A stretch of DNA of 63,964 bases, the filler included, from Reticulomyxa filosa (Eukaryota; Protista; Foraminifera): assembly GCA_000512085.1 (NCBI GenBank). It is 14 parts of 14 records of this genome, joined end to end, with 100 filler letters (N's around TTAATTAATTAA, not from the genome) between each part and the next. Parts side by side here need not be neighbours in the genome. Positions count along the whole stretch, not along the records: positions 53,978 to 58,024 come from ASPP01005944.1; 13 more parts are not named here. One strand, 5' to 3'. Positions within the stretch are counted from its first letter, which is position 1. Each line of letters begins with the position of its first letter. Under the pieces are notes generated by a model. The model was given only the letters and a program-made list of their open reading frames with translations, was not told the origin of the DNA and searched no databases. A program made the position numbers and the translations under genes. This document shows positions 9,619 to 63,964 of this stretch, one piece after another.

Positions 9619-9827
9619 GGTCAAAAAAAAATAAAGGGCTTGTCGCTTGCCTTTGTTGCGTGAAACTATTTGCTGAATATTTATTAAACAGGTATTTACT
9701 CTTAAGCTTGCATTTACATTTGCTTTGCGATAACGTTATTTAAAGTTTTTTCTTTTAAAAACAGCCGTTTGTGTGTGAATTCCTTTTTTTTTTTAGTTGG
9801 AAAAGATTTAGCTTCATTGTGTGGAGG

Positions 9828-12210
9828 ATGAACATTTCCGAACGAGTGAAAACAGATAAAACAAAAACGAATAGCAAATATGTAGCAAAAAAAAGACAAT
9901 ATCCCGAAGATGACGAGACTGTTGAAGCTTCCCCTCCAGCAAAACGACAAAAACAAACAGCAGGCTTCAAAAAAGACAAGAGTTGGGAAGAGATTGGAGT
10001 TTGCAAAGAGTTATGCATAGCGTGCAAGAAGCTGAAATGGGCACATCCGACACCAGTGCAAATGGAAACCATCCCAGTTGCTTTGAGTGGTGCGTTGCAA
10101 TCTGTCATTCCTTTTTTTTTTTTAAATTTTGAAAAAATAAGAAAGTTTTTCTATTAAAATGAAAAAATACATGTATATAATATATATTAGGAAAAAGTAT
10201 AATTGGATTAGCAGAAACCGGTTCTGGTAAAACCGGAGCATTTGTAATACCAATAATCCAAGACTTGTTGAGTGCACCAAGGCCATACCATTCGTTGATT
10301 TTGGCACCCACTCGAGAATTGATATTGCAGATCGAAGAGTGTTGTGACGAGTTGGGCAAAGACATTGGTCTGAAGTGCATGACTGTCATCGGTGGTGTCG
10401 GTATGAAAAGTGTTGACAATTGATTTGATTTGATATAATTTAATATAACTTGCTTTTGGCTTGGTTTGTGAAGGAGAGACTACCTAAAATAAAAATACAA
10501 CGTATATAATATATTATGTATGTTGTGTGATGGGACCCTTTGAAAAGATAGGACAACGCAGGCAATAAAACTGCAGCAAAGACCGCATATAATAATTGGG
10601 ACTCCGGGACGTCTGTTGGATCATTTGATCAACTCGAAAGGGTTCAAATTGCCAGAGCTCAAGTACTTGATACTGGACGAGGCAGATCGAATGTTGGAAA
10701 GCGAGTTTGGGATGGCAGTGGAGGAGATTGTGAAGCTACTTAAGGAGCAGCATACACAGAACAATAGCAAAAATAAGACAAAGGAAAAGGAAAAGAAAAA
10801 CGAAGAAGAAGAAAACAAAGGCAATAATTATCAAATACTGCTATTTAGTGCAACAATGACAAAAAAAGTGGAACAATTGGAGAAATTGTGTTTGAAAAAT
10901 GCCATAAGAATTGAATTGAATTTGAAATATCACACCACCAAATCATTGACTCAACAGTTCCTCTTTGCCCCTGCCAAATTCAAATTGGCCTATGTAGTCT
11001 ATTTATTGAATCAATTGAAACACCAATTGCATGGTCAAAACATCCTCGTCTTTGTCAATTCCAAGCAATCGTGTCTTCACTTTTCCTTTGCTTTGCAACT
11101 GCTCAAGTTTGTTGCCATCCCATTGCACGGACAAATGGACCAACAGCAGCGTATTGTCGCCATTCATCAATTCAAACAAGAACAATTTTCCATCTTGGTT
11201 GCTACCGATATCGCCGCGAGGGGTCTTGATATCCCACTCGTTGGTGTGGTTGTCAATTACGATTTACCCATTCGCTCCAAGGTATATTCACATTGTTTTT
11301 TTTTTTTTTTTTTAATTGAATTGATTTCACAACGATAATGTGAAAGGATTACATTCATCGCGTTGGAAGAACTGCTCGAGCAGGAAGAGATGGCATTGCC
11401 ATCAATGTTGTCACACAATATGATATTGAAACATTCCAAAAAATCGAACAAGGTGTGCTTTCAACATCTCTTCCGTGTTTACTTTCCTTCTTTTTTTTGT
11501 TTGCTTGTTGGAATTAACAGCGGTGCAAATTCGAATGGAGAAATTCTCAATCGATGGCGAACAAGCAATAATTAATATTGACAGCATCATGCAAGCCAAT
11601 CAAGAGGCAATGCGCGTTAGTTTTCTCGTCTCTCTTTGCTTTTTTTTGCTATCCTCTTTTCCAATTGATTTTGTTTGCTCACACAACAAAGCAAGTGAAG
11701 AGATGGAACAAAGAAATACGGGTAAAAGTGCAACACAATGGACAAGAGGGCCTTTTTCCAGAAACAGACGCAAATCCAAGTAATAATGATGATGAACATA
11801 ATGAAGAAGTTGACGATAATGATAATAACAATGATGAAAACAGTGGCGATGATAAGGGCAATACCACTGACAATGAAGAAGAAAGAGACTCTGAAAATGA
11901 ACACAATCAAGAAACCGACAATGAACCAACCAATGAAATAGACAAAGCTGATAACGAAAACAAAAGGTTCATCACTGATCCTTCCAAAGGAATTGCACAA
12001 AGAAAGAAAGAAATTGAAGAAAAGCAAAAACTAAGACATAAAACATTCAATTTTGAAAAAGATTTTGAAAGGGAAAGAGGCCGAGGAAGAAGAGGACGAG
12101 GGCAGGGAAGGGGACGAGGAGGAGGAAGAGGACGAGGAAGAGGAGAAGGAAGAGGACGAGGAGGAAGGGGACGAGGAAGGGGTAGAAGTAACGAAAGAGG
12201 GAGATTTTGA
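9828..12210 (+). CDS. DDX47: DEAD-box RNA helicase DDX47/Rrp3 with acidic and RG-rich C-terminal tail (multi-exon)
   Basis: Q-motif [55 protein letters not shown] and the Rrp3-like VTQYDIE. GT-AG introns (e.g. 10090-10190) restore the frame. Confidence 0.9.
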
Positions 12211-13549: not shown

Positions 13550-16500
13550 TTATTTCTTTTGCAATCTCCATTCTTTGTGAAATTGATCTCCACGAGTTGC
13601 CTCGAATGCGTTCGATTTTTTGTGACCACGTAAGCGCTCACGAATTTGTACACGTCGACGTTTTCTGGCTTTTTCATCTTCTTCTTTTTTTTTTGAGCGT
13701 TGCTTTTTCGTACTTTTCGTTTGGTCTCTCGTTCTTTCTGTTAAAAAAAAAAACCGTGACAAGATGCGCGGAAAAACGAAACAAGCAAAATTCTTTCCCC
13801 CTACTTTGCACATTTACAAGATTACCTCAGAGCGATTAGCAACAATTTCACTTAGGCTATGAACCAATTTTTGGGCTTCTTTTGTTTCTTTGTCAGGATA
13901 TTGCATTGGGATTCTCTCCGAAGATTTGGGATCACGAAATTTTTGTCGCATGTTGAATGGCAATTGTTTCTGTATGCTGGTGGGGATTTTTAATGTATTG
14001 AACAAACGGAGTTTCTTTCTTCCGTGGCTTCGATAAACTGAATCTTCTTTGAATGCAGGTCTGGCGTTGTTTTCTGCCCTCAATTGCCCGATTGTCTTCA
14101 TTCCTTTCCATTGATCCTTAAAAGTCAACAGCAAGGATCGGACAGGGTTATAAAATTGTTGTGGGGCAATCGGGACCCAAGACTTTAAAAATATCATATC
14201 CGATTTCAACAATCGATCCTCGAAAGTGGCTCGAAAGTTACCGACTTTTCCTTCGGCCTTTTTAATACTGCCACGTACTCCACTTACTGTCTGAATTTTG
14301 GCACCAACGAATTTGGCCACCTCCAAATTGCTATTAAACATTCCTTTTACAAAGCATGTGTTACGATGGATTTCATACGGTTCTCCAATTATCTTTAATT
14401 TCTTTACGATTTTGTATGATGTGTTGCAGGACAATACTGTCCCACTGGCAGCAATGCGAAACTCTTGCTAAAAATATATAAGCATATACATCATGTGTAT
14501 ATAATAGGAACAAACAAATAGATGATAAAAAACATAAATATAAACGCAACAGAATTCGGTGAACAATCCACATAACCAATAAAACCAAATCCGGGCTGTG
14601 CAATGGGTCCATAAAAAATAGTTAAGCAATGCATGTGTTCGGGGGTATACTTAACCAAGCGCAATCGTTTTTGATTTCTGTCTTCGACACAGAACAAAGG
14701 TACGGTTTGGAAGCGCCTCCAACCCAAAGACACGACTAAGGGGTCATTGAATTTGAGCAATCGTTTGTACCATCGATGCTTTTTAATACGGCACTGAACA
14801 AAGCCAAATTCCATTTCTTGGGGCAGCAATCCACCCAGAATAACAGGGAAGCGCAAATCAAAGTTCATATCGAGTTCACTGGGGACATTTTCAAGAATAA
14901 TGCGAACATAGGTCCCAGGGATATATCCACGGAATTCGTGTTGCAAAGATTCAGGCTCATTGGCAAATTCTTGGGCATTGATTTGGATTTGCTTTTCCAT
15001 TTCTGATCGCTGCATGTCCATCCAATACTCACCTCTTCCGCTGCCTGCGAGGTTTTTTCGGTCCATCTCGTCCTCACCCAGGCCTCCTTGGCCTCTTTTT
15101 TTACCTTGACGATCTTTTTTCACATTGTTTTCGCTGCCCTTTTTTTCAAATATTTTCCTTTGCTCTGCTTCGCTCACACCAGTTTTGTCGTAGTACGACT
15201 CTTTATGGAATAATCCAGCATCGTACATGCGATCGAATTCCTCTTTTTTTTTATTTTGCTTTGATTTTGAAATGCCTTTTCTTTGTCATCCTCGTTGTCA
15301 TTGTCATTATCGTTGTCATCATCGTGATCATGATTATCTTCATTGCCATATTTTTGTCTTTTTCGCTTTGCATTATTGGATTGAGCAAATTTGATTTTAT
15401 CTTCAATTGTTATGTCATCGCTGTTTGTAATTCCCTGCTCTTTCATCATTTGCTCCAAGCGATACTCCCAATCCAATTCATCCTCTTTCACTTCGTTTTC
15501 TGGATTGTCCATTGTCACACCTCCCAAGTCTTCAATGATTTGTCGGTCTTGTTGCACTATGGGATCGAATAAATCCGGATTTCGGTTTTGTGCTCTCTTT
15601 TCAACTTCTGATTGAAATTTTTTCGCTGCGACCCAGTCCCCTGTCACAAATCGGTTGCGAATGCTCTCTGTAACCTAACAGTGAATTATTGTATTTCGTT
15701 AATTAAATGTAACAAATATACATGTATACACAGATACATATATATATGTATATAATAAACAGAAGGTTTGTCCCAAGCATCCAAAGTCATATTATGCAAT
15801 GCAGTGACGGATGAATCGACCATGTCGATTTCACTCTTTTGAATGTGCGCTTTTTGACTCGGAAGAATTCCTCGTCACTACTGTCGTTATCATTGTCACT
15901 TTCGTCATCCTTGACATCATTATTCTCATCGTTCATTTTATTTTTGTTATTTTTTTCTTCTTTTTCTCCTTCTCCATACACCCATTCAAACAAGGTCATT
16001 TTTCGTTTCCACAACTCTTGTGCATTTGCCAGTAGTTGCTGTTTCCACTTGGCATTGCTTTCGCTTACACTCTGCGATGGATTGGCTTGTTTTTGTTTGT
16101 TGTTTTTTTTGTTCGGTTGTTTTTCTTTGCTTTCGTTTGATTGTTATTTTTCCCTTGATTTTCACCGTTGGCATTATTTGTATCATTTGCAGCGTCTGCA
16201 TCATTCATACCGCTTACGTCATTTATATTACTTATATCATTCATATCATCATCGTCATCATCTCCATCGCTATCATCAGTTTGTCGGACCTCATTTTGTT
16301 CATAGTCGTACTCGTCATTATCTTTGTCATTACCAATAACTGGCCATTCATGTTCGTCCGCCTCTTGATTGGATTGAATCCATTCGTCGACATTGTTGAA
16401 CTCATATCCTTCATCTTCGTTTTCATTTTCTTCGTTATTTGCACGTGTATCGTTATTATCAAAGGAATCGCCAAAGGGATTTCCGCTCTCTCCGCTGACC

Positions 16501-18070
16501 TCATCGTCAAAGATGACTCTCCTTCTCGTTCGTGGAGGCTCTGCATCGACATCGGCATTAGCTTTAGTGAACGTGCTATTCTTATTTGCCTTTGCCGCGG
16601 CAGTCGCAGCGACTTCAAGTTGTTCACTTCGAATAGGCTTGGAATCGGCAAAGATCTGCAATGTGCTATCTTTCATTCTGTCGTCCATTGCCGCCGTGGC
16701 TTTGGACATTTGTTCAATCATCAGTTGCGCATTGCCCGTTTTGATATCGGCGTAATGGACATTTTCATCTTCGTTGGCTTGCAACTTCAATCGTTGCAAG
16801 TATTGTTTGTCACTTTCCCAGCTTTGTTTGTTTTTGTCTATCGCTTTTCTCGAGTCGTTTCGCAGTGTGATATATGCCGCATGTTTGTCAAATACAATTG
16901 GCCCAATGTTTGCCATTGGCGCGTAGATTTTGCCGCTTTTGACCAAATGCCTCATTCGTTTCTGTGGCAATGGCACAGGGTCTTCCATTTCCTCCATTTC
17001 TTTGATGAAAAAATCACCGACGCCACAAAGGTGCACATTCATAGTAGAGCGGAAGTTGCATCCTCGAATGTACCCATAAAACGCAACAGTGCGATCGATT
17101 TTGGGATTGTTTTTAACAGCCACGGGTTCTGTCAAGTCTTCGTATCGATCCACTAACATGTAGGGGTGAGTATTTCGCCATTGCAATGGACGAAACTTCA
17201 GCACCGATATGAACCGAACTAAATTGCGGATATCGGTTTTGTAATACAATTGTCCAATCTTTTTGTCAATTCCCTTTAACACGAACAGCTTCGCTCCGCT
17301 GTAAATCTCTTTCCAAAACCGGTGTTTCACATGGTATACGATACTTTGTTTTTTTTGCAACTTCACATATTTGTCCAAATGTGTCAATACTCCCATCACA
17401 CGAGGAAATCCATGCAACTTTAATTTTTTTTTTTTTTAAAAAAAATTAGTTTAAATTGCATTACATTTTTTAAAAAAAAGGAAAACGCATATTCGCATCT
17501 TTTTTTTTTTTTAAAAAAAAAGGGGTCCATCCAAGGTCAGAACGGAACTTGAGCACAATTCAAAAATTCAAAGGTTTCCATTTCAAATCCGTAAGACGCG
17601 TCGACTAAAAGCAAAGCCAAATCGCACGTCTTGGCGACGTCGATCATGGCGTTGAGTTCGTTGGGACATTCCAAAAAGGTGATTCTGCGATGATTGCTCG
17701 CCAAAATGGTCATGGGACCTCGGCAGTCTGTTAGCTTGGTCGTCGTGTAGTGCTTCACCAACGACCGGATCAACAACGACTTGCCCACTTTAGGGGGACC
17801 CACTACTGCCACATACACTGGTGGCTCGAGCATGTCTTCTGTTATTCGCTTCGGTAGCAATGCGTGATGCTTTGTGTGCTCGCGGTCCATTAGACGTTTG
17901 ATGTGTTTCCATTTACTGTTGATATTCGATTGCGTATTTGCTTTTATATTGAACGCTTCTGGCTTTGTTATCCCCAGCTTCTTATTTCTTGCTGCTTCTT
18001 TTTTTCTTTTACTTACACTGTTCCCTGGCGCGGCGTGCTTCTTGTTCTCTTGTCCGGCACTCACCGGCAT
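13550..18070 (-). CDS. BMS1: Ribosome biogenesis GTPase Bms1 (multi-exon)
   Basis: PPVYVAVVGPPKVGKSLLIRSLVK, RRITFLECPN, GFEMETFEFLN, HGFPRVMGVLTHLD, LQWRNTHPY, IRNRFVTGDW, RIKKHRWY..LKFNDPL..SLGWRRFQT, KYTPEHMHC, IQTVSGVRGSIKKA. A few homopolymer frameshifts. Confidence 0.95.
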
Positions 18071-18621
18071 TGCTCGCTTTCGTTTTTTAACCACACACAA
18101 CACTTATCCAGTCACACTGTTACACGTCAGTCACACAAAATATATCACTTCCACCAACCCTTTTCTTACCTTCGGTGTATATGACATTGTGTTGTTTTAT
18201 ATATTTCCAATGTGAAGGAATTGTAAATGGATTTTTTTACCAATTTCAGATATTCAACTTTTTAAGTTGGGGGCTCACTCGGCTATTTTGACACCAACCT
18301 TTTTCAAAACAATATTATTTTACAAAGCAGACACAAAACATGTAAAGTTAAGCGGTCTTCTAAAATTGTATGAAAGAACGTCTTTATTTAAGTTGTGCAA
18401 TCACAATTTCTACTCTTCTTTCGGCGCAAAAGTGCCACTGTGAGATCTGTTTTTGCACTTTACGCAGCAACAGAAAGACAAAGAAGAAAAAAAGAGTTTC
18501 TGCCACTCCTTTTCCAAGAGTTTTGGTTTTTTCGTGTCGGAACCAGAAATTTTCCGAATTTGGAATCTGCGTAGTGCTTTTTTTTGTACTATTGTGAGTT
18601 ATTATTTGCATCCCCTTAGTG

Positions 18622-30751: not shown

Positions 30752-32544
30752 ATGGAAGATCTTTCGACAACTACTGATGTCTTGATATTGCCTTGTCATG
30801 ACTCACAAATTTGTAATGATCCTCTAAGTTTGACAGGAAACTATGATTCGTTGGAAGTACCAAAATGGGAATTGCTTTCAACAGGTGATAAACAAAACAA
30901 AACAAAATAAAAATCGAATACATTAATACACTATAATGAAAAAAAAAAAAAAAAGTAATTATCCCAATGTCGTGAAAAACTATTATCAAATCACAAGAAA
31001 TTATCAAAAAAAGAATGGTCATTGGAGGTTTATGTGACACAAAGCATTGATACAGTAATAACAGATACAATAAGTGTAATTCAAAATTCATTAAATAGTA
31101 ATAAGAAAATAAATGAAAATAAGCCAATGAAAAGTTCTCCATTCGAATCATTGAAATTTGCATTGAATTGTTTGAGTACATTACAACCCAATTTTTTTGA
31201 AACTTTATTTCATATTGCATTACCACAATCAATTAATGTAAAATTATATTTTTGTATATTGTATTGTATTTCATTGTATTCTTAAATTAAATAAATATTA
31301 AAAAAATAATTACACAAAAGATTGCATTAGAAATGAAAGAATTATTTGAAAAACCTTATATTATAGAATGGAAAGAAGAAAAAATAAATGAAAAAGAAGA
31401 AGAAAAAGAAGAAGGAATTAAAAAAAAACAAAAAAAAGAAAAAATAGAATTAAATCGAAAACAAATTTGGTGTTTATTAACACATATGTTTTTTACAACA
31501 ATGGATGAATCAATACATAAATATTGGAATAATTTTGATATATGGTATCATTGTGAAGAATCTAATAATTGTGTATTTTCATATTTATTAACATTATTTC
31601 ATTATTTTATACATATATCATTAAATGATAATGAAATACAAAATATAAATCCTAAAAATATTATTTTTGAAAAAATTACTTTAGAAGATAATGATAATTA
31701 TGATTATAATATTGATTGTAATAAAGGAGAATGTAATAATATAAAATGGATAAATTTATATGATAAAAAAAATAATATGTTATTTGATTATAATGAATCA
31801 CAATCAATAGAATTTGTTGTTGATTTTGCAAATTCTTATGTTGGATTTGGAATTTCTGGGACACAAGAAGAAATGATTTTAGGAAGTTCTCCTGAATCTT
31901 GTATAATTATGTTATTATCTCCAAATCCAATGAAATATGGACAAATTATTGTTATTCAAAATGTTTATGTTATTGCAAAATTTAAAAATTATGGAAGAAA
32001 TCTTAGTTTTGAAAAATGTTTAATAAAAGATTGTAATAAAAAAGATAATATATCTACTTTATTTTTAAGACATATTATTGCTGCAGATGCAAGTGAATTA
32101 GATATAAATGAAAATATAAAAAATACAGAAAATATTAAAATATTAGATTTACAAAATAAATATTTAAAAAGAGATTTTATAAAAGCTATTGCAATTATGT
32201 CATTATTTCAATCTAATTTATTAAATCAAGATATTTTTATTCGATCTGGTCTTTGGGGTTGTGGAGCTTTTTGTGGAAATAAATTTATTAAAACATTAAT
32301 TCAATTTGTTGCTGCACATATTTTTTTAAAAGTTAATCCAAATATTCATTTTAAATTTTATTGTATTGATGATTCTTTACAAGAAGATTCTTTTTCTTAT
32401 TCTTTATTTTCTTTTCTTAAATATAAACATGATAATCATATTTGTTGGAATCATATTTGGAGATTTGTTTTGAATAATAAATCTTTATTTCAATTAGATG
32501 ATAATATTTTTCAAATTATTATTCAAAAAAATAAAATAAATTAA
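30752..32544 (+). CDS. PARG: Poly(ADP-ribose) glycohydrolase
   Basis: Catalytic VDFANSYVGFGISGTQEEMILGSSPE and SGLWGCGAFCGNKFIK, plus CLLTHMFF. Exons approximately 30752-30884, 31014-31237 and 31321-32544. Confidence 0.9.
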
Positions 32545-36552: not shown

Positions 36553-37041
36553 TTACAATTTGACAGTGGGGAGATGGCTTTGGTCGTGTGAAAAGGCCTG
36601 TATCCCAGTGATTCCCCTACCGAGGATGAGAGCATGAACATCCTGTGTGCCTTCGTACGTATTGACTGTTTCCAAGTTGCAAAGATGACGCATGACATGA
36701 TACTCGTCGACGATGCCGTTACCACCGAGCATATCTCTGCAATGTCTAGCAGCGTCGAGTGCCTTCAAGCACGAGTTTCTCTTGACGATCGAAATCTGAA
36801 TGGGATGACAAAGGCCCTCATCCTTGAGTCTGCCAACTTGCAGGCATCCTTCCAAGCCCAGACTGACATCCGTCACAATCTGTGCCATCTTGTATTGGAT
36901 CAGTTGGTAGCTTGACAGCGAATACCCAAACATTTTCCGGTCGTTCGTATATTGCAGCGCACGTTCCAAGCAGTCTTCTGCCGCGCCCAGAGCGCCCCAC
37001 GCGATACCATAGCGAGCATTATTTAAACACGAAAACGGTCC
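36553..37041 (-). CDS. GCDH: Glutaryl-CoA dehydrogenase, last exon
   Basis: [24 protein letters not shown]...QLIQYK..KRNSC.KAL...[49 protein letters not shown]. Confidence 0.93.
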
Positions 37042-37168
37042 CTTTTTTTTTTTTTTTTTTTTTTTTTTNNNNNNNNNNNNNNNNNNNNNNNNNNNNNNNN
37101 NNNNNNNNNNNNTTAATTAATTAANNNNNNNNNNNNNNNNNNNNNNNNNNNNNNNNNNNNNNNNNNNN

Positions 37169-38863
37169 TTCTGAATGTCCTAATAATTGTTTTATCTCTA
37201 TTCCAGAATGTACATCCCATAATCGTATTGTACTATCTCCCAAACCTGCCACAATATATTTTCCATCTGGAGAAAAGTCTATATCATATATCTCATCCAA
37301 ATCTCTTTTAAATGTTATTATTTCAGTTTCCGTATTAATATCCCATAATCGAATTGTTCCATCAAATGAGCATGAAATAACAGTGCGTTCATCTGGTAAA
37401 AATCTTGCAACACAGGCTGAAGAGGTATGTCCTCTGAAAGTTTGGAGTAGTCTTTTCGATGCAACATCCCATATTTGAACATTATAGTTATTTGCTGCTG
37501 AAACAACCTTGCGACCATCTGCAGAAAATGCAACACTGCACACTCCACTTTTACATACTGGGAAACCTCTCAAAAATTTGAAATCTCTTACCTATTTGAA
37601 AATGTGAGTTATAGATAACAATCATAACATAAGGAAAAAAAGGAATTCTTAACATATTTGATAATGATTTTGTTAAAATCATCAATCCATCCCAATTTTA
37701 TCTCTGCTATTTGTATCCAATGTTGTACAATAAGTCTCATTTCGTTTGTCGACTGTTGATTATATTTGTTATAGGTTTCATAAAATAAGATTTATTTGTA
37801 TTTAATTTAAAAAGCAATATAGTTTTAAAAAGTTAAAAGGAAAAATTACCAATTGTGAAGCATTACACAATGCTATCACCTTTGTCTTCATATGCCTTGG
37901 TACTGTGGTACCTTTATAATCACTTCCTCCAATAAGGTGTATATGCTTTTTATCTTCACTCAATACCGCAAAACAATTATACAATCGAATAGGCAAATTA
38001 AGCTCACATTTAATCCATGCATTTTCTTGAATCAAATACTTGTGCACTGCTTTTGAAACATTATACTTTTTATTACTCAATCCGCCAAAGAATAAGATAA
38101 CGTCATTGATACACACAGACGCACATCGATAGAATGGTGCAATACCACTATAAAAACGTAGTATATGATATTGAAGGGTGTTATTATCTTCATCATATCC
38201 AATTGATAGTGCTTCTTTACAAAATAATATCATTTCATAAATTTTGTTTTTATTATTTTTTCTATTTTCTGATTTTGATACAAAGCAATGATACCACAAT
38301 GAATAAATTGGTAAATTATCATGTTTAATAAATTGAAATGTATTTAAATCAAACACACTAATATTATTTTTTGGATAAGTAATAAATAACAAATTATTGC
38401 TGCTTCCACCAATCACTGCACGCACTCCTTCATAATTATCACCATCTCTTCCGATTTGAATTATGTTATTGTGATTGTCTGTGAAGGGAATCCATTCATT
38501 GTAATTGTTTATTTTCTTTAATCCCTTTAATTTATCCATTTCATTGTCATTGTCATTGTCCCAAACACTTACATATTTCATTATCAATGTATGCTTGTGT
38601 TCCCCGCCAAAAGACAATAAAGTGATTTCATTACTGTCTTTATTGTTGTTATCTATCAGTTTCACTACACAGTGTCCAAGTAATCTAACATCACTTGGAT
38701 ACTTACAGATAAACTTGTATTCGTTTTTGAGTGTATGATAAGAAAAACAACGACGGTTACGTGCACCTCCACAAATGAGGACTTCATGTTTGTGTAACAC
38801 ACATTGAGGTTGAAAAAATGGAGTTGGCAAATCCTTCAAAGTTTGAAAGATTTGATTTCCCAT
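37169..38863 (-). CDS. Kelch-repeat / linker exon / WD40-repeat protein (3' end truncated)
   Basis: Exon 38863-37850 Kelch propeller (VLICGG, LLSFGG, AVIGG, LFFGG, HLIGG). Exon 37752-37654 STNEMRLIVQHWIQIAEIKLGWIDDFNKIIIKY. Exon from 37591 WD40 (FRGH..ARF..D..VISCSFDGTIRLWD). Both introns are GT-AG phase 0. Confidence 0.9.
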
Positions 38864-40185
38864 GTTATTGAAATGTTTTTAAAAAGAAAAAAAGTTGTTC
38901 TCTTTGGAAAAAATGAAAAAACCTGCAAAACTTTTTGGGGGTGAACCTTAGAAAGGCAAAATTATTATAATCTGTTATTTATCCTCCGTCTTTATCAACC
39001 TCTTTTCTATGATTAGACATTCCAAAAAATGAGTACAAATAGCTACCTGCTATATAAATACATCATTTCCTTAAAACGAGACAAAATGATCTGGAATTTA
39101 CATCAATTGAGAAACCAAAAATTTAGTAAATATCAGTACATAACGTATATGGATAAATATTTTACTGATTTTACATTAACATGTTTGGGATAAATCATTC
39201 ATATATCCTTATTGTTCAAAAAAAGTTTATTTTAATTACAAAGGCCTTGCTTCTTTTTGTAAAGAATTGATATTGAAAATGTAATCACTGGGTTTGCTTC
39301 ACTGATTTTTTTTAAAGGCAAGTCAACTTTGTTTAGGAAAAGAAAACAATATAATGTTAGTTTTTTTCATTCAAAAAAAATCTGCTTATGACAAGAACAT
39401 GATTACAATGAATTTTCGAAAAACGAATGTACTTTCTTGTATCTGCGTTAACAAAGAAATTGATAAAATGTATGCAAATTGCAATGACGATAGATTTTTT
39501 GATCATTTGAGACTTTTGTTGTTTTTTATCTTAAGTTTCAAATATTTTGCAAAAAATTCAATAAATTACTTTAATCACAAAAATACTCTCTCCTTTCATG
39601 AGCAATTGGATAATAATATCTGTAATTGTTTAAAATTGAGTTTAAAAATTATTTTGATAAAACCTTTTTTATTATTTTTAATTTTGGATAGAGATTACTT
39701 CGTTGAAAAAAGTATATTTTGACGTTTGTACAATTTGTACGTTCACTTACATGTCCATCGGATTGCAATCTTGCTTAAGAACATTTATGGAAATTAACAT
39801 TGTTGTATCTTAGCCATTTTTAATCAAATATGAACATTAAAGGAATAATTATAAATATGAACACTAACAATTTTTGCATTATAAAATTGTTGTTGTGACG
39901 TAAATATATTTTACAAAATGTAATATTTATCTCATTTCAAAATGTTTCTTACGTACACATTAGTTCAATTTTTCCTTTTTTAAACAAAAGTTCAACCATT
40001 TTTTTCATCTTACATCATCAAAAAACATATCAAGAAAAAAGAAAAAAATTACAAGAATGAACTTAAATTTATCAATCAAAGTTAANNNNNNNNNNNNNNN
40101 NNNNNNNNNNNNNNNNNNNNNNNNNNNNNTTAATTAATTAANNNNNNNNNNNNNNNNNNNNNNNNNNNNNNNNNNNNNNNNNNNN

Positions 40186-40337: not shown

Positions 40338-41067
40338 TTAAAAACTGAAAAAGGAAAAAGAAAAGTATAATTCAAGAGTGTCTCATGTGCAACTGATAAA
40401 ATCAAAAAGGGTTACGCCGGAAAATCAATTGCAGGAATTTTGTTGATTTTTTTTATCTTTTTCTTTATGAATAGTACTTTTGAAAGTATATTAATATTCC
40501 TTGTTGTAACATATTCCATGCAATAATTTTATTCTTTAAAAAAACAAAGGGAGATATTCAAAGGATGTCTTAAAAAATTATAACAAGATGCAGCAAAATG
40601 AAGATAAAATAAATAAAAATATTCAAATAGGAAATTTATACAATGAACATAATAACATATATTTAATTGTTTTTTATTCGTTAATAATTTTGAATATATT
40701 TATTTTCTCCTTTTAATTATGAGAATATATATTAACATGTCAAGTTAGTTTAAATGATAAATGTAAAGTATGTACTTTATGGAAATGTTGGAAGTCTTTC
40801 GATAATCTAGTCCGTTTTTGTATTGTTCGACTGAAATATTTGTTCGACACATTAGTTTCTACTTATCATTATTTTTTTTTAAAAATTTTTAAAGCACAAA
40901 AATGAGAAATATAAACAAAATAATTTCAAATATTTTTTTGTAGTTTAAAAACATTCTACTTTTAAAAATAATATGTAGATTATAATCATTCAAGGATAAC
41001 TTTTTTCATGTACTTTCCCTTTTTAAAAAAAATCTAAATTACTTCATAGTTCCTCAACATTAACAAC

Positions 41068-41373
41068 ATGAGCAACCAACTTTTTCAGACTTTGAAGGAG
41101 TTGCCAACTCCACTTGTTGAATCTCAATGTGTGCTACACAAACACGAAATCCTCATTTGTGGAGGTGCTAAAAAAAGAGCTTGTTATTCTTATCATACAA
41201 TCAAAAATGAATACAAGTTTATCTGTGAGTATCCAAGTAATATTAAATTAGATGGACACTGTGTAGTGAAACTGGTAGATAACAACAACAAAGACAGCAA
41301 TAAAATCACTTTGTTGTCTTTTGGTGGAAATGAAAGTACAAAAAGACATACATTGGTGATGAAATATGTAAGT
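41068..41373 (+). CDS. Kelch-repeat family protein, 5' fragment
   Basis: MSNQLFQTLKELPTPL..SQCVLHKHEILICGG..CYSYHTIKNEYKFICEYPS is closely similar to the 38863 ORF and runs into the gap. Confidence 0.9.
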
Positions 41374-41474
41374 NNNNNNNNNNNNNNNNNNNNNNNNNNN
41401 NNNNNNNNNNNNNNNNNTTAATTAATTAANNNNNNNNNNNNNNNNNNNNNNNNNNNNNNNNNNNNNNNNNNNNT

Positions 41475-44400
41475 ATGGAAAGACAAATATTTCAAACGCA
41501 CAAAGAACCTTTAAATCCTAGTTCAACAACTCTTGAAAAAGCATCGAAGCAGCTGCAAAATAAAATACAAGCACAAGAACATTTGAGATGTGGAACAGAT
41601 GAATTGATAGATTTTAAATGCGATTATAGCAAATGTAAACCGCCAATTGACTTAAATAGTGTAAGGGATGACACATCATTGTATTCCATTTACAAATCTA
41701 AATTTTATTTTCCAATTATCTCAGTCTATTGGGAAATAAATTCCACCTTTATGGTCCCCTGTGCACGTACAATAGCTCCAATCGAAAATCGAGCTAGTCA
41801 CTTAAATGAAAAACCAAAATTGAGCCTGTTGCCACATGCGCAGAGTAAAGAGCAATCGAAATGCATTCAAGATTGTGCACGCTTGTGCTGGTCATCCTGC
41901 AACACTTCATTAAAAAATCTGCTGCATGAAGTGATAAAGAACGAGCAATTGTGTATTTTGGCTGCTCCTGTGAACAACCAAGATAGGCAAGGGGCAGCAT
42001 TTTATAAGGAGATTAAAGAAAAGCTTTGTTTTGATGAAGAGAACAGAGCTAAACTGGTATTAAATTATTCCATATTGCCAATAATCAATCAAGTAAAGCA
42101 ATCGTATCACTTATATATTCACAAACATATGGGCTATCCGCTTCAATTACACCATATTTGTGCACTAATATTGCATTCTGAATTGGGTGAGCAAATGCAA
42201 GATCAACATCATAAATGGCCATTCTTTGAAGCGCACTTACAGGAGGCAATTAATATTTTATATAGACACGAAAGAAGAGAAGAAGATGATATGGAATTAT
42301 ATTACAACTCGAACAGAAAAAAAAGAGTCAGAGAGATAATAAACAAAATCAAATTAGGATATTTTCCCTATTATATCAACGCCTCTGATTCTTTCCAAAT
42401 CAATACAACCGAGCAAGAATACATTTTGCATTTCCATCCTTCGATGAGAAGAGCTTCCAATATTGCCAGTTGTAATCCGACATGGCTATTTCCAGATAAG
42501 TATCGCCACGAAATTTTGTTTGAAAGAACTGACAAAAAACAACAGGTATTCGATGCAAAAGTAGAAAATGAAGATGAATTTATACAAATGATATTACTGA
42601 CACCGACAACATACGGTCAATTTATACAGCCGATTGAGTGGATTAGTAATATATTAGACTATCCTACTGATTTCAATCTTATTTATTTAGCATCAAAAAT
42701 GTTTGACGGAAACACCAATCGAGCTATTTCAGTTTTATCTCGATTTGAAACATGGAAAAAAAAAGATGTCAATAAAGAGAAATATGAACAACAAATGAAC
42801 GAATTTGTGAAAAGACGCTGTTGTAATCACGAGGTCAATTTATTTTATATGTTTCTTTTTGAACAAGGTTATCTGAAGGAGCAAACAGCTTTACAAGCAT
42901 CCATTCTATCTACTGTTATCGATGGACTACCTTTTGTCAATCAAGACAAAGATAAACTCTTTGAAACCTTGCTTCCTTTGCCTTCTCCACTTTATCGGGG
43001 TCAATGCATATCCTTCAATCACGAAATATTGGTTTGTGGAGGTTATCATAATCAGAAATGTTATTCCTATCATACAATCAAACGTAAATATAAGCGTATT
43101 TGTTTATATCCAAGTAATGTTGAATTAAATGGGCATTGTGTGATAAAACTCATGGACAATAATAATTCACATGGTATTACTTTGCTATCTTTTGGTGGAT
43201 CTCCAAAACATACATTAATGATGAAATACGTGAGTGTATGGGATAATGATGTAATTGATGTGAAAAATGAATCTCATTTAAATAAATGGATACCTTTCAC
43301 TGATAATAACAACAATCCGATTTTGATTGGAAGAGATGAAGACAATTATTGTGGAGCACGTGCATTGATTAGTGGTAGTGATAACAATTTATTATTTATC
43401 ACTTATCATCCAAAGAATATTAGTGTGTTTGATTTACATACATTCCAATATATTAAACACAGTACTTTACCAGTTGATTCTGATACTCAGATAAAATATC
43501 ATTGCTTTGTATTAAAACCAACACATGGATTATCAAAAGAGAAGAAAGATAAAAAATTACATGAAATGATGTTATTTTGTAAGAATACAGGTTTAACAAT
43601 CGAATATGATGAAGACTATAATTTATTTCAATTTTATTGTGTATGGGTTTGCACAACTATTAGGCCATTTTATTCCTATGGGTTCGTTTGTGTCAATGAT
43701 ACTATTTGGTTTTTTGGTGGATCTAGTGAAGATAGAGTCATCTCAAAAGCTGTTTATGGATATTCAATGCTTAAGGATCAATGGATGAAATTCGAACAAA
43801 CTTTGTCTATGCCATTAACTGGTTGTGTCGCAATACTAAGTGGAGATAATAAATATGTACATATTATTGGTGGATATAATGAAAGTGGGACACTTTCCAC
43901 ACATATCAAAACAAAAGTAAAAAAATGGACGACGGAAAAAACAGCAATACAAAGAAGATGGATAGAAAAAGAAGAAGAAAAGAGATATATTGAAAAAAAC
44001 GAAAAGAAAAAAAGAGATTGAAGAAATCAATAAAGAATTGAAAACGATGAAAACATCTGACATTAAAAAATTAAAAGTTAGGTGAAATTCATTACCATTG
44101 TATTTATTTATTTTCTTGATACATCAAAATTAAAATGTGCAATTTTACATTATGCGTAAAACAAATCTTAATAAAAGAAAATCAACGAAATTTCACAAGT
44201 AGTTGAACATTGGATTCGTTCGTTGTTGGTCAGAATGGGATGGATTGATCAATTTAACATTATTGTAGCACAATATATTCTGGTATGTTATGTATGCTTG
44301 TTTCATTTTCTGTACTGACTATACACAACAAAAATTTAATATATACATATACATATATAACAGGGAAAATATTTCCAACCATTCAAAGTTATTCAAGAGC

Positions 44401-52598: not shown

Positions 52599-52940
52599 CT
52601 AAATCTGAAGAAGGTGTGCATGCTTTTTAACAAAGCGATTGAATTCTGGAGTTTTTCCAAACCTAGAGAAACTGTCACGAGACATAAGATCATAGGTCTA
52701 TATTTCAATTCAAATATTTACACCATAAACAATACAGTTCAAAAAAAAAAAAAACAAACAAAAAACGAAACATATAAAATCGAACCTCTTCAGCAGCTTT
52801 GTCAAACACTCGCACCAACGTCAGACGTATATTGTACTCAAAAGTGCCTACATCCGAAAAGTTACTTTGGTAAAGCTTTTGAATGACACTACTGGAATAG
52901 TGTCGATCTTGAAGAGATAAACGTAAGCTAATATTGTTGA

Positions 52941-53033
<93 letters not shown>

Positions 53034-53877
53034 TGTCATTATTATTATTATTGGTAGAGCCAACTGATAAAATATCTTTCTTTTGAAAAACGAGTTCTGC
53101 AGTGTCACTTTCTGTTTTGCGATGATGTGCGAGTTTGGATGGCGGTATGATGGATGGTGTTGTATCTACACAAGGCAATGGCGATTCGGAGTGTGCATCG
53201 GAAAGGGCAAGATTGAGCTTGTTGTTAAACTCCGAGTGTCCTTGTGTTTGGGTTGGATGGTCGTAATCCATACGCGAGGCGACGACACCGTTGCTTTCGG
53301 GAATGGGGATCACGATAGGAGTATGACTGAATGTGGTCCATTGCGATACTGGAGTAGGCGTCGACAGGCCTGGGGCACCGCCGGTCATGGGTTCCATTGG
53401 CACTTGTAATGTCGATCGCACGACGGAAGAAGAGAGCAAAAAAGAGGGGTCCGTTGCTATCGCAGCAATGACACGTGGCTTTTGTTCCTGTCCATCTTTT
53501 GTCTTCTCTTCATTGTCACTATTATCATTCACATCATTGTGAGTGTCATTATTATCATTGTCATTATTGTTATTATTGTCATTATCATTATTAATATCAT
53601 TATCATTGTCGTCATCATTGTCATTGTCATTGTCATTGTTGTCAGGTTCAAATTCAAGGTCGTAATTCATCGTTACAAATTCCGTCATGTCAATATCGTC
53701 GTCATTGTCTACCATCACATTGCTATTTTCTTGATTTTGTTTTTGGTGCGATTGTTTTTGCAAGTTGTCGGTTGGAGTTGGCGTTACCGTGAACGTTGAA
53801 GTTGGCATTGGATAAATAGTTTTATTATTATTATTGTTATTATTATTATTATTACTATTATTATTATTATTATTATT
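52599..53877 (-). CDS. RGS-domain protein, C-terminal part with a long Asn/Asp-rich low-complexity region
   Basis: LVRVFDKAAEE splices to TYDLMSRDSFSRFGKTPEF, matching the RGS terminal-helix pattern FDxAxxEIxxLMxxDSxxRF. Stop at 52599-52601. Confidence 0.75.
52941..53051. repeat. (TAT)n microsatellite encoding poly-Asn on the minus strand
   Basis: About 30 perfect TAT units plus an interrupted extension. A second tract lies at 53823-53877. Confidence 0.95.
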
Positions 53878-54015
53878 NNNNNNNNNNNNNNNNNNNNNNN
53901 NNNNNNNNNNNNNNNNNNNNNTTAATTAATTAANNNNNNNNNNNNNNNNNNNNNNNNNNNNNNNNNNNNNNNNNNNNTTTTTTTTTTTAAACTAACGTCC
54001 ACCTTGGTTAGTACG

Positions 54016-54489
54016 ATGACAGAAATTACAGTTCGTTATGTTTTCACGCAACAAATAAAAAAAAAACAAATCTGAAATACATAAAGGTTACCACCTCCGG
54101 ACTCCAGTCAAAAAGCATAATGATCATAAACGGAGTCCCAGGTTCTTCTGGCAAGCTAGTGCTGAAAAACATCGACGTATATAAGGATACAGTCCAAAAA
54201 ATAAAAGAGCGAATATGGAACGAAGAACTCGGAAATGCAAACATGGATAGTAATACTATCAAGGAAAAAATCGATAACACGATATTGACACATTCAGGCA
54301 CAGTGCTAGAGATCAATGAGGTACGTATTCTATTTAATCAGCTTGGAGGGAGTAGCCTCTATGATACATTATAACTAATAGAAAACACTGGCACATTATG
54401 GTATCCATGGTGAAAAATTCATACTTGCATTTAGATTTCGTGTAAGCGGTGGTACAGTTTGTGATCATCTGCGTTCATTTAGGCAATAA
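54016..54489 (+). CDS. Divergent ubiquitin-like protein with di-glycine motif and an 11-aa tail
   Basis: Exons 54016-54030, 54087-54320 and 54382-54489 (all phase 0) give ..DTVQKIKERIW...LTHSGTVLEINEKTLAHYGIHGEKFILAFRFRVSGG-TVCDHLRSFRQ*. Confidence 0.75.
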
Positions 54490-55274
54490 AGTGGCTCTGT
54501 TTTCGGAGTACCCGTTGGACCTCAAATGTCCTTTTTGCAAAAATTTTTGAAGGCATGGACTGAAACTAAAATGTTATCGTGTCAAAAAAACTAGCTTTTG
54601 TTTGAAAAATTTTTGCATTAGTCTTAGTTAATTATTGTAATTTTAGTTTTTTTCTTCCATTGCGGAATTACTAACAATTGATAATTGTTAGAGACATTTG
54701 ATATTTTACTTTCATCAACTAGTATACAATTTGACAAATAATCTCTTGAAAATCAATTGTCAGAAGCGCCTAGTATGATTAGAATGAGATATAATAAGGC
54801 GACACAAGACATTTGAATCGCACTTTGATGTGATACCAAAACTGTTTTTCACTCAACGATGGTAGAGACAAATTACTACAGTTGCCGCCAAGCTCCAACA
54901 AATTTCCCAAAAGCACACTTTAGAGGCAATCATATATGTACGTGATTAACATGTGCTGAATGAATGCGTGTGTGGTTAGTGAAATCAGCTTTATAACGCA
55001 ATTTGTTGCTACATGAAGAAAAAAATGAGCGTATTCGTTCAATAGTTGACAAGGCGGTTATGTCATTGTGGGAGAAAATACAATTGCGATATTTTTATTT
55101 CTATGGGAATGACATATACGAAAAATTTACTCAAGATATTCAAAGACTGTCCAATAAAGGTGAGCAAAAAGAAAAAGGCAATTAAATACAGTGCGAATAA
55201 AAAAGAGAAAATATCCTTTATAATAGTGCCGCACAAGGAATAGAATTAAAAAATAAAAATAATAAATATAATAT

Positions 55275-57430: not shown

Positions 57431-58024
57431 TTATTTTTCATTAAGATTGTTGAGAGTTTTGCTGTAATCATGCCAAAGCAAGTCACAGACGTCAGTTCTC
57501 TCAAAGCGAATGAAGCTATCTCTAAGCAAGTTGGAGAGTTCTCGAACAGCAGCGTCAAGACAGCGTAGCTTCATTTCAACAGTGACCGTGTTGGAAAGAC
57601 TTAAAACTTCGATATTGGTATTTTCGGGTGTAATGTCTGCATTGTTATTGTTATTGTCATTGGTATAATTGTCAGAAGGATGTTGAGGCAGTTTTTGCTC
57701 AAAGAGTATGAATTGGCATCGCAGCGAGATATCATAAGGAATATTAATTTCCAGCGAAGAGTTTCCTCTCTGAATATACTTTTTATACAGCGCCGTGATC
57801 GCCTGGTCGATAGTAATTTCACTTTTATACAGTTGCTCGACCAAGTAGCCGAGTCGAAGTTTCCTGGGCAAGTGGATTCGATACACAAAGTAGTCCATCG
57901 CCGGTAGCAGCGATGCGGGCGGCGACAATGGTAGAAAAGAGGGGGAGCGATTCATCTTGTTCGCATCAGTCTGACCATTTTTATTACTCTTTGAGCTTTG
58001 TTCGTACCAACCAAATAATTGGCG
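57431..58024 (-). CDS. RGS-domain protein, C-terminal exon
   Basis: ALYKKYIQRGNSSLEINIPYD...LDAAVRELSNLLRDSFIRF matches the RGS motifs IYxxYI..EINI and DSxxRF. The frame is open to the contig edge. Confidence 0.85.
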   Translation of the reverse strand, partial: RQLFGWYEQSSKSNKNGQTDANKMNRSPSFLPLSPPASLLPAMDYFVYRIHLPRKLRLGYLVEQLYKSEITIDQAITALYKKYIQRGNSSLEINIPYDISLRCQFILFEQKLPQHPSDNYTNDNNNNNADITPENTNIEVLSLSNTVTVEMKLRCLDAAVRELSNLLRDSFIRFERTDVCDLLWHDYSKTLNNLNEK

Positions 58025-61689: not shown

Positions 61690-62712
61690 CAGCAAGCACG
61701 TATTCCTTTACCAAAAAAATTACCTGCTAAGACTACTCCTCAATTATGTATTGATTATTCGGGTATTTTAGGTGATTCAATGAAGGGATTTTATCGTTCA
61801 AGATACGTACGATCCAGTTTATATAAACATCCTTTTTTTTTTTTTTTACATAAAAAATAAACTACGAATAAAAAAATTTTTTGGAAAAATAGATGGCGAT
61901 CCTGCGTATTGTGGAGTAACACAATTTGAAGCAACAGATGCTCGTAAGGCATTACCTTGTTGGGATGAACCTAGTGCTAAATCAACATTTACTTTAGAAT
62001 TAACTGCACCAAGTGATTTAGTGTGTCTATCAAATATGCCTGGTATGATTTTTTTCAAATATTTATTTGTTTGCTTTAATTGTATTATATGTAAATAATG
62101 TGATATTTTTTGGTAATAGTGGTTGAAACAAAGATATTTGGTTCTGTCAAAACTGTTGTTTTTGACAAATCACCAATAATGTCAACATATTTATTGGCAT
62201 GGTTTGTTGGTGAATTTGAATGCGTTGAATCAAAAACAAATCGAAATATTATGGTTCGTGTATGGACTCAAATTGGAAAAAAGAATTCTGCAATTTTTGC
62301 TTGCGAAACAGCGTGCAAGTGTTTAGATTTTTATGAAAAGTTATAATATATTTATTTATTTATTTATTATATAATGTTTATTGTATTGTAAATTAAAATA
62401 TTATATATAGATATTTTGAAATTGAATATCCTTTACCAAAATGTGATATGATTGCAGTACCAGATTTTGCAGCAGGAGCAATGGAAAATTGGGGTTTAAT
62501 CACATATCGAGAAATTGCATTATTAGCTGATAAAGAAAAGACTTCAATACGACAATTACGATATGTAGCAATAGTTGTTTGTCATGAATTAGCACATCAA
62601 TGGTTTGGTAATTTAGTTACTATGGATTGGTGGTCTCAATTATGGTTAAATGAAGGTTTTGCTTGCTTTATGGAATATTTAAGTAGTGCTGCTGTGTTTC
62701 CAGATTGGCGAG
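61690..62712 (+). CDS. M1 family (puromycin-sensitive-type) aminopeptidase, internal exons
   Basis: [48 protein letters not shown] and the [20 protein letters not shown] zinc motif. Confidence 0.95.
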
Positions 62713-63964
62713 TTTTGTTTTATTTTTTTATTTTATTTTTAATAAATGACTTATAATATAAAATATTTTTTCCATTANNNNNNNNNNNNNNNNNNNNNNN
62801 NNNNNNNNNNNNNNNNNNNNNTTAATTAATTAANNNNNNNNNNNNNNNNNNNNNNNNNNNNNNNNNNNNNNNNNNNNTTGTCAGTCTTTGGACTTTTTAT
62901 TCCTACATTTTTGTCAATTTATCTCTTTCATTTTTTTCATTAGTACAATTAAAATTAAGACTTATCTAGAATTATTTATTTTGCAGCTACGTCAAAAGAA
63001 AAAAGTAACTCCAGCCAAGAATTTCCACTAAGTGAAGACAAAAGCATTAACTTAGATTCATTAAATGTAAAAATTGAACTTATACTCTTTTGAACTTGTT
63101 GATAAATCAAAGACATTATAGACAAAAAAATAAAAAAATGGGACTAACCCCCTTTCATCTGAGATGATTTTAATTTATTTGAAGGAAGAGAAAACAATCA
63201 ATATATGAAAAACTAATATTTTGCAGAAAAATGTAAAGTCAAAATAATATAACCGAAAGACGCTCAAAAAGGGAGTAGTTCCATTTTATTTTTTTTGTCG
63301 TCTTCACTAGTCTTGGAAAATGAACAGCAGACCAATTTCTAACTCTGTTGATGCTGTCTTGAAAAAGTCTGTAAAAAAACCTTGTCCTTCTCGTAACAAA
63401 CAAAGTGTGCTACTTTACCGTTAATTTTTTTGAGAAAGTCTCACAAAGAGATTTGACACTCTTTATTCGGCTCGTCTTTCAGCCACAAAGATTTTAATAC
63501 ATTCAGTTTCATTATATATTGCACGATATTGCTGAGAGTATTTCTTTGACGACGTGTCTGTATACACTTCAAACACATTACACTATAATGCATCAAATGC
63601 AGAAATAAGTATGAAGTTATCTAGAAAAACAAAAGTCTATATTATTGTGCCAAAGAAACAATGGTGCATCGCAATATCCTATGCTCACTGAAGCAAAAAC
63701 TAATAGATTTACATTTTCCATTCAATAAATTCATGTATCATGCTGTGTAAAGTTTTGGTGCTTCAACTAATGAAACAAAAAAATACGGAAACATAAAGAT
63801 CGTTTTGTTTACTGTATTTACTTGTTCTCAAAAACATGTATTCATATGATGAAATTTTTGTTGTGTTCAAACTTTGTAAACAATAATGCAGAAAGTTTTC
63901 ATTATTATATGGTAGTGTCTTCCAAAAAATAACAAATGATATGTAGCATTTTGCATTAATTGTT

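What the first reader, a model, noticed from the sequence alone, without database searches (positions are those of the whole stretch)
54016..54489. Candidate novel conjugatable ubiquitin-like modifier
The ORF track misses the last exon. Spliced, the 118-aa product aligns to ubiquitin landmarks: DTVQKIKERI vs DTIENVKAKI, LTHSGTVLEINEKTLAHYGI vs LIFAGKQLEDGRTLSDYNI, and LAFRFRVSGG vs LVLRLRGG. The di-Gly sits at the homologous position, followed by an 11-residue tail like the propeptides of SUMO or NEDD8. The sequence is not ubiquitin, NEDD8, SUMO, URM1 or ATG8 as I know them, and it carries two insertions. It may be a lineage-specific type-I modifier. Caveats: CTAAC..AG at about 53992-54011 suggests an upstream exon lost in the gap, and GTAAGC just before the GG codons could be a donor site.
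Basis: partly seen in the sequence, partly recalled or inferred. Interest (0 to 1): 0.7.

Follow-up and report, generated by a model that had tools for sequence, protein, structure and literature searches.

The report
Orphan ubiquitin-fold gene in a foraminiferan
A predicted three-exon gene at the edge of a short contig, likely from the foraminiferan Reticulomyxa, is predicted to encode a small, very divergent ubiquitin-fold protein with Gly-Gly near its end; it more likely works as a non-attached binding module, and whether it is attached to other proteins as ubiquitin is remains untested.

Summary
The gene model holds. Exons 54016-54030, 54087-54320 and 54382-54489 give 118 aa without a stop, with GG at 106-107 and an 11-residue tail. 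The product scores 11.1 bits on a ubiquitin profile (0 of 5000 shuffles reach it), and acceptor 54381 is the best of 35 tried. The fold is likely beta-grasp, but it is far from ubiquitin and no Pfam ubiquitin-like family matches either exon. The only relative found is R. filosa RFI_31016 (46% over exon 2), whose record appears to miss the same intron, so its GG position cannot be read. The modifier claim stays open. The GG register is ambiguous: it sits at the ubiquitin position, or two residues further out, depending on gap cost. Ubiquitin's L8, R42 and I44 equivalents are changed. The 'gap' is a contig end 38 nt upstream of the ATG, behind an acceptor-like signal. No RNA run, genome or orthologue was available. 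The codon model mildly favours the GG tail as coding. Verdict: a real, apparently unannotated lineage-specific ubiquitin-fold gene; non-conjugated module about 0.55, new type-I modifier about 0.2.

The parts
53878..53977 (.). Artificial contig linker (44 N, 12 fixed bases, 44 N); the gene's contig starts at 53978
   Evidence: 13 identical linkers in the window
53978..54015 (+). 5' flank: poly-T, CTAAC at 53992, AG at 54010-54011. Either 5' UTR or the 3' end of an intron whose upstream exon lies off the contig
   Evidence: Open in the ATG frame up to the contig edge but scores non-coding in that frame (-5.6 bits; 453 of 455 coding windows score at least as high). 27 of 129 CTAAY sites on both strands of the window have a YAG within 20 nt
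54016..54030 (+). Predicted exon 1 (5 codons, from the ATG); weakly supported
   Evidence: In phase with the acceptor at 54086; a donor at 54040 is also in phase
54031..54086 (+). Predicted intron 1, 56 nt, GT-AG, 25% GC
   Evidence: scores non-coding in the main frame (-6.9 bits)
54087..54320 (+). Exon 2 (78 codons): predicted strands 1-2, main helix, an inserted helix and a further strand of a beta-grasp fold
   Evidence: 46% identity to RFI_31016; codon model +10.1 bits, best of six frames; AlphaFold model E9-13, E24-29, H36-50, H55-63, E67-69, mean pLDDT 60
54321..54381 (+). Predicted intron 2, 61 nt, GT-AG, 34% GC
   Evidence: Best of 35 acceptors on the ubiquitin profile; the paralog's similarity ends at the same position
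54382..54489 (+). Predicted exon 3 (35 codons and stop): TLxxYGI motif, strand beta5, GG, tail
54442..54447 (+). GTAAGC, donor-like hexamer encoding V104-S105
   Evidence: GTAAG occurs 8 times in 17,001 nt of ORF cores; none of 167 downstream acceptors restores GG after it
54448..54453 (+). Gly-Gly codons (residues 106-107 of the model)
   Evidence: register against ubiquitin ambiguous
54454..54489 (+). 11-residue tail and stop codon; candidate propeptide
   Evidence: 54442-54486 scores +5.2 bits, best of six frames; 57 of 366 coding and 11 of 878 background windows reach it

Best explanation
The three predicted exons likely encode a divergent, lineage-specific ubiquitin-fold (beta-grasp) domain that likely works without being conjugated, as a non-covalent binding module, either alone or as the last domain of a protein whose first exons would lie off the contig. 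Shown: open reading frame under the splice model, similarity to ubiquitin above shuffles, one R. filosa paralog. Inferred: the fold; descent from a ubiquitin-like ancestor by duplication and fast divergence; binding through a surface other than the classic L8-I44-V70 patch, which is changed here; GG as a retained relic or a tail motif rather than an E1 substrate.
For: Fold: profile 11.1 bits, 0 of 5000 shuffles. The Atlas model of the paralog's matching stretch gives TM 0.65-0.71 to ubiquitin-like domains in all 10 rows, mostly multidomain, non-conjugated types (ubiquilin, HERP, Get5, Dsc3, a HECT E3). 21 of the 50 listed VIA-align rows for the exon-2 model name ubiquitin or a ubiquitin-like domain. 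Against a working modifier: L8, R42, I44 and F45 align to S, I, T and H, with a 13-15-residue insertion after the helix; the GG may lie two residues too far out; no relative outside R. filosa among 1.84 billion representatives (1 real hit of 6 listed), which points to fast change where modifiers must satisfy E1, E2 and protease (inference); the 5' end is open at a contig edge behind an acceptor-like signal.
Against: GG is rare by chance (33 of 5641 dipeptides in window ORF cores), yet it lies at or within two residues of the ubiquitin position, followed by a short tail that looks coding. One of the two registers keeps an R72 equivalent and an ungapped tail. The paralog has a Met a few residues before strand 1 and at most 41 further annotated residues upstream, which fits a small stand-alone protein, the usual build of modifiers. 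No binding partner was identified. Structural scores are weak: best Z 4.3, Foldseek 0 matches at E up to 0.001.
Confidence: 0.55

Rival explanations
1. It is a lineage-specific type-I modifier: made as a 118-aa precursor, cut after G107 by a deubiquitinase-type protease, activated by an E1 (possibly the ubiquitin E1, given the Arg before the tail) and attached to lysines.
For: GG at or near the ubiquitin position with a short tail; GG rare by chance, 33 of 5641; tail scores as coding, 11 of 878 background windows reach it; small protein; a protist precedent exists in PUBL, whose di-Gly is essential (PMC6115763 passages; PMC7600729 section 9).
Against: Register ambiguous; R42, I44 and L8 equivalents changed; GG conservation not shown in the only relative. 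If the paralog's annotated tail is in frame it reads S-G-A at the matching place (6184 of 20000 shuffles score as well). No orthologue found.
Confidence: 0.2
2. GTAAGC at 54442 (or GT at 54440) is a real donor, the GG codons are intronic, and the domain ends in another exon.
For: The hexamer is a strong donor-like word and starts exactly where the ubiquitin-like R-x-R motif ends in the shifted register. In-frame continuations of 22-26 codons exist at acceptor 54482, one with a CxxC.
Against: The nearest intron would be 41 nt and 44% GC, against 25% and 34% for the other two. The skipped stretch scores coding in the GG frame (+5.2), the alternative frames non-coding (-5.4; -14.6). GTAAG also occurs inside ORF cores (8 times). 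Caveat: intron 2 also scores mildly coding in frame (+1.6; 63 of 769 background windows reach it), so the model is not decisive.
Confidence: 0.12
3. It is a decaying or silent duplicate with no current function.
For: No record of this protein in the collections searched; canonical surface residues changed; no relative outside one genome.
Against: No stop or frameshift in three exons, canonical splice sites, codon periodicity in exon 2 (+10.1 bits; other frames +0.2 to -52.9), and 46% identity with a paralog concentrated in the fold's core.
Confidence: 0.1

Closest known systems
RFI_31016 / ETO06381.1 / X6LYI0 (Reticulomyxa filosa hypothetical protein, 153 aa; P0002)
   Same: 46% identity over exon 2 (E 3.1e-11); same insertion after the helix; similarity stops at the position of our intron 2; its Atlas model is ubiquitin-like.
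   Different: Keeps Ile and an aromatic residue at the I44/F45 equivalents, where ours has Thr and His. Its annotated C-terminus looks like intron read-through, so the true last exon and the GG position are unknown.
Ubiquitin / NEDD8 (type-I UBL, PF00240)
   Same: Landmarks align above chance; median 22-26 identities to 95 ubiquitins by gap cost; GG followed by a short extension, as in precursors (PMC3968751, passages).
   Different: No Pfam hit for either exon where the matching ubiquitin pieces hit at 7.6e-22 and 2.2e-05; inserted helix; L8, R42, I44, F45 equivalents changed; N-terminal extension of about 15 residues.
PUBL, apicomplexan plastid ubiquitin-like modifier
   Same: Precedent for a lineage-restricted protist UBL that needs its di-Gly (PMC6115763 passages; PMC7600729 section 9).
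   Different: PUBL is shared by several apicomplexans, is organelle-targeted and has genetic support; ours has one paralog and no functional data. No sequence comparison with PUBL was made. The two reviews disagree on how close PUBL is to ubiquitin.
Type-II ubiquitin-like domains (ubiquilin, HERP, Get5, Dsc3; SF3A1 C-terminal UBL)
   Same: Nearest structural rows for the paralog. SF3A1-UBL shows a terminal UBL whose GG-containing tail binds RNA (PMC8833184, passages).
   Different: No second domain is visible on this contig; the tail is VSGGT, not RGGR-KK; type II is usually defined as lacking di-Gly (PMC9652315, passages).
MUB / UBL3 membrane-anchored ubiquitin-fold proteins (PF13881)
   Same: Small ubiquitin fold with a Cys in the tail; PF13881 appears among the paralog's Atlas rows.
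   Different: The Cys is ninth from the end, so there is no terminal CaaX box (the CaaX feature is recalled, not from a call).

Membership tests
Ubiquitin-like (beta-grasp) superfamily | Beta-grasp fold, by sequence or structure | tested here: met
   Profile 11.1 bits, 0 of 5000 shuffles; paralog model TM 0.65-0.71 to UBL domains in 10 of 10 rows; exon-2 model has the expected strand-strand-helix-strand order, VIA-align Z up to 4.3 only. The spliced product itself was not folded.
Type-I UBL modifier | Di-Gly at the position of ubiquitin G75-G76 | tested here: inconclusive
   In register at gap costs -11/-1 (95 of 95), two residues further out at -10/-0.5 (95 of 95)
Type-I UBL modifier | Transcript encodes GG plus a short removable extension | tested here: inconclusive
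   Gene model and codon scores only; no RNA data
Type-I UBL modifier | GG conserved in homologues, tail variable | tested here: inconclusive
   One homologue, with an unreliable C-terminus; neither the in-frame reading (S-G-A) nor the shifted reading (GG position just past the record) beats shuffles
Type-I UBL modifier | Stand-alone UBL, not a domain of a larger protein | tested here: inconclusive
   Contig ends 38 nt upstream of the ATG, no in-frame stop, acceptor-like signal; paralog annotated with 41 extra N-terminal residues at most
Type-I UBL modifier | E1 activation, E2 transfer, conjugation to lysine | not testable with these tools
   Needs biochemistry or proteomics
Type-I UBL modifier | Cognate E1, E2 and protease in the genome | not testable with these tools
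   No genome is held for this window
Ubiquitin (PF00240 core members) | High sequence conservation, strong Pfam match | tested here: not met
   No hit for exon 2 or exon 3 at E up to 5; control pieces of a natural ubiquitin hit
NEDD8, SUMO, URM1, ATG8/12, UFM1, Hub1 | Match to the family's Pfam model | tested here: inconclusive
   No hit for the separate exons or the paralog (paralog's best was Get5_N at E 0.083). No split-exon control was run for these families and the spliced product was not scanned.
MUB / UBL3 | C-terminal CaaX box (recalled) | tested here: not met
   Model ends SFRQ; Cys is ninth from the end
SF3A1 C-terminal UBL | RGGR motif followed by two lysines (PMC8833184, passages) | tested here: not met
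   Tail reads VSGGT

The most novel reading that the evidence does not exclude
Reticulomyxa has its own small family (at least two paralogs) of conjugatable ubiquitin-like modifiers with an inserted helix and a remodelled binding surface, matured by removal of an 11-residue propeptide: a protein tag unknown from other eukaryotes and missed by annotation because its last exon was not called.
Probability: 0.2. Interest if true: 0.7.

Novelty: new member of a known kind. Interest (0 to 1): 0.3.

Why it matters
If it is conjugated, it would add a modifier to the short list of eukaryotic ubiquitin-like tags, in a lineage whose UBL pathways are hardly studied, and it would be easy to test because trypsin would leave a VSGG remnant distinct from ubiquitin's GG. 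If it is not, it is one more orphan ubiquitin-fold protein in a genome with about 40,000 gene models (PMC10245619, Table 1). The practical point is then that this gene appears to be unannotated and its paralog mis-spliced.

Tried and rejected
Genome: none held. RNA: no RNA holder was listed; this is no evidence on expression. Homologue searches with exon 2, or exon 2 plus the paralog: nothing at 42-137 aa (no candidate; 0 of 5 candidates), only the paralog at 138-2000 aa (1 of 580). Of the 6 hits, five are long repetitive proteins (Ig-like, MORN and others) and were dropped as repeat artefacts. Metagenome and viral contigs: 0 of 455 and 0 of 566 candidate stretches confirmed; an exact 29-nt exon-3 pattern had 0 matches. 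All large searches used exon pieces, not the spliced product, so they are less sensitive than they could be. PDB by sequence: nothing below E 0.1. Atlas by features for our exon 2: best 0.78, recognition 1825, uninformative; for the paralog 0.81-0.86, leads only. Foldseek: 0 matches at E up to 0.001. hhalign of the exon-2 alignment against one ubiquitin: probability 0.6%, misaligned. Folding exon 2 and exon 3 as two chains gave no verdict (score 0.01). Reading the paralog's tail one base shifted gives residue sets compatible in register with exon 3, starting at a possible AG and ranking first of 12 anchors, but 1960 of 3000 shuffles do as well (37 of 60): kept as a lead only. An apparent N-terminal match between the 54012 frame and the paralog is chance (1993 of 5000 shuffles). 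A crude splice finder on other window genes was too imprecise for donor statistics or a minimum intron size. (its GG count) used two of 26 training ORFs on the wrong strand; one search corrects this and is the one quoted. A link to the ORF left of the linker (52705-53877) was rejected: different contig.

Full report
Setting. The window is not one locus. It holds 13 identical linkers (44 N, 12 fixed bases, 44 N) that join short contigs. The gene's contig runs 53978-58024, so the ATG at 54016 is 38 nt from a contig end and the ORF to the left belongs to another piece. The organism is inferred to be Reticulomyxa filosa: the one true relative is named so by its sources, and earlier scan notes on the same genome say the same (unchecked AI notes). 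That assembly has 50,809 contigs, N50 3609 bp and 40,160 gene models (PMC10245619, section 5 read). No genome was held.

The observation. Exons 54016-54030, 54087-54320 and 54382-54489, with GT-AG introns of 56 and 61 nt, give 118 residues without a stop, one GG at 106-107 and an 11-residue tail. Against a profile of 95 distinct natural ubiquitins (from 116 readable copies in the 121 loci) the product scores 11.1 bits; 0 of 5000 shuffles reach that, the best being 10.5. Against one ubiquitin, 8 of 3000 shuffles reach the pairwise score. Of 35 acceptors tried downstream of donor 54321, 54381 scores 11.1, the next 7.2, exons 1+2 alone 6.6 and intron retention 6.2. A codon model trained on 26 window ORFs scores exon 2 at +10.1 bits, best of six frames; 4 of 143 background windows reach that (which corrects two wrong-strand training ORFs). 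Exon 1 is only five codons and a second in-phase donor exists at 54040.

What it is. phmmer of exon 2 against 1.84 billion representatives returned 6 hits; five are long repetitive proteins and were dropped, and one is real: RFI_31016 of R. filosa, 153 aa, 46% identity, E 3.1e-11. Three word-based searches added nothing and did not return this window's own protein, and two unspliced ORF forms are not in the collection, so the gene appears to be unannotated. The Atlas model of the paralog's matching stretch aligns to ubiquitin-like domains in 10 of 10 rows (TM 0.65-0.71; three meet the tool's bar for a family name: PF13881, PF00240, PF12754). An AlphaFold model of exon 2 alone (mean pLDDT 60, pTM 0.48) shows strand, strand, helix, extra helix, strand. 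It lacks the central last strand and scores weakly: Foldseek 0 matches at E up to 0.001, VIA-align best Z 4.3, with 21 of 50 listed entries naming ubiquitin or a ubiquitin-like domain; the tool warns that such Z values may mean only a common arrangement. Together these make the beta-grasp fold likely. It is not ubiquitin itself: neither exon hits a ubiquitin-like Pfam family at E up to 5, while the matching pieces of a natural ubiquitin hit PF00240 at 7.6e-22 and 2.2e-05.

The di-Gly. Three questions decide the modifier claim. First, is the GG translated? 54442-54486 scores +5.2 bits in the GG frame, best of six; 57 of 366 coding and 11 of 878 background windows reach it. The alternative frames after acceptor 54482 score -5.4 and -14.6, GTAAG occurs 8 times inside 17,001 nt of ORF cores, and the nearest intron would be 41 nt and 44% GC. 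None of 167 downstream acceptors restores a GG after donor 54442. This favours read-through, but intron 2 also scores mildly coding in frame (+1.6; 63 of 769 background windows), so it is not decisive. Second, is it in the ubiquitin position? With gap costs -11/-1 all 95 ubiquitins put G75-G76 on the GG with no gap in the tail; with -10/-0.5 all 95 put R72/R74 on R101/R103 and leave two residues, the very codons of GTAAGC, inserted before GG. Strand beta5 alone prefers the shifted register, 11 against 4. So the position is right to within two residues. Third, is it conserved? The paralog's similarity stops where our intron 2 starts, and its record continues with an A-rich-looking stretch. Read in frame, its end aligns with S-G-A on our S-G-G (6184 of 20000 shuffles score as well). 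Read one base shifted from a possible AG, it is compatible in register with exon 3 and the GG positions fall just past the annotated stop; this anchor ranks first of 12, but 1960 of 3000 shuffles do as well. Neither reading is significant, and the paralog's DNA could not be obtained.

The 5' end. The ATG frame is open to the contig edge but the 36 nt upstream score non-coding in it (453 of 455 coding windows score at least as high). CTAAC followed by TAG lies there; 27 of 129 CTAAY sites in 128 kb of both strands have a YAG within 20 nt, so the signal is uncommon in so short a flank, though it was picked after the fact. An upstream exon, coding or not, is therefore plausible. The paralog has a Met a few residues before strand 1 and at most 41 annotated residues before that, which argues against a large upstream domain, as far as that annotation can be trusted.

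Mechanism. Type-I UBLs carry a C-terminal di-Gly and are conjugated; type II are not conjugated and act by binding (PMC9652315, passages; PMC7600729, section 3 part 1). Most are made with a short extension that a protease removes (PMC3968751, passages). Here L8, R42, I44 and F45 align to S, I, T and H and a 13-15-residue insertion follows the helix; that these residues serve E1 and ubiquitin-receptor binding is my own knowledge, not from a call. With that, an uncertain register, an open 5' end and no orthologue, I put a non-conjugated binding module first (0.55). A GG with a short tail need not mean conjugation: the SF3A1 domain uses its RGGR tail to read RNA (PMC8833184, passages). A new modifier is second (0.2): GG is rare by chance (33 of 5641 dipeptides), the build is that of a precursor, and PUBL is a protist precedent (PMC6115763, passages; PMC7600729, section 9). 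Splicing-out of the GG (0.12) and a decaying duplicate (0.1) follow. These odds are judgement, not computed.

Novelty. No paper in the library names RFI_31016 (0 papers). Searches pairing Reticulomyxa or foraminifera with ubiquitin-like terms listed 1, 5 and 7 papers, none on this family by title or abstract start; one search listed none; the 15 papers listed of 1,117 do not mention Reticulomyxa; PMC11354881 has no mention of it (passages). PMC2408969 was seen as one passage. The 2014 genome paper was seen only as a reference line; it and its supplements may bear on UBL gene counts and intron sizes. The finding is a new member of the ubiquitin-fold superfamily; membership of the type-I modifiers is untested, not refuted. 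Interest 0.3 as it stands, 0.7 if conjugation is shown.

Noticed in passing
window 1-63964: The window is 14 separate pieces joined by 13 identical artificial linkers; neighbours across a linker are not linked.
   Followed up: yes
P0002 (RFI_31016), residues 118-153: The public protein record seems to read through the intron that our gene has at the same position; its C-terminus is probably wrong.
   Followed up: partly
window 54490-54594 +: The GG frame stays open for 34 codons after the stop, at 38% GC against 23% further down; codon score intermediate (-4.5); no Pfam hit. Could be 3' UTR or a lost longer tail.
   Followed up: partly
window 54446-54550 +: Another frame over the tail ends in a CxxC motif; it scores non-coding and has no Pfam hit.
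   Followed up: partly
window 54321-54374 +: Read-through of intron 2 also contains a GG before its stop; the retained form loses the exon-3 similarity (6.2 bits).
   Followed up: partly
window 57431-58024 -: 197-codon ORF on the same contig, cut by the contig end; looks RGS-domain-like by eye (recalled), but Pfam gave no family.
   Followed up: partly
window 54997-55185 +: 62-codon stop-to-stop frame downstream on the same contig, no Pfam hit.
   Followed up: partly
window 31291-32544 +: Poly(ADP-ribose) glycohydrolase domains PF05028 (E 7.9e-25) and PF20811.
   Followed up: partly
window 41430-44021 +: 863-codon ORF with Kelch-type repeats in its second half; two related Kelch-like ORFs at 37802-38878 and 41050-41421 by eye.
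   Followed up: partly
window 5852-9098 -, 9759-11338 +, 13814-18103 -, 36553-37116 -, 61784-62756 +: By eye only (labels recalled, not scanned): IF2-like GTPase, DEAD-box helicase, BMS1-like, acyl-CoA dehydrogenase-like and M1 aminopeptidase-like genes.
   Followed up: no
window 1872-2888 +: 338-codon ORF with glycine-rich GGGSGG-type stretches and no convincing Pfam family.
   Followed up: partly
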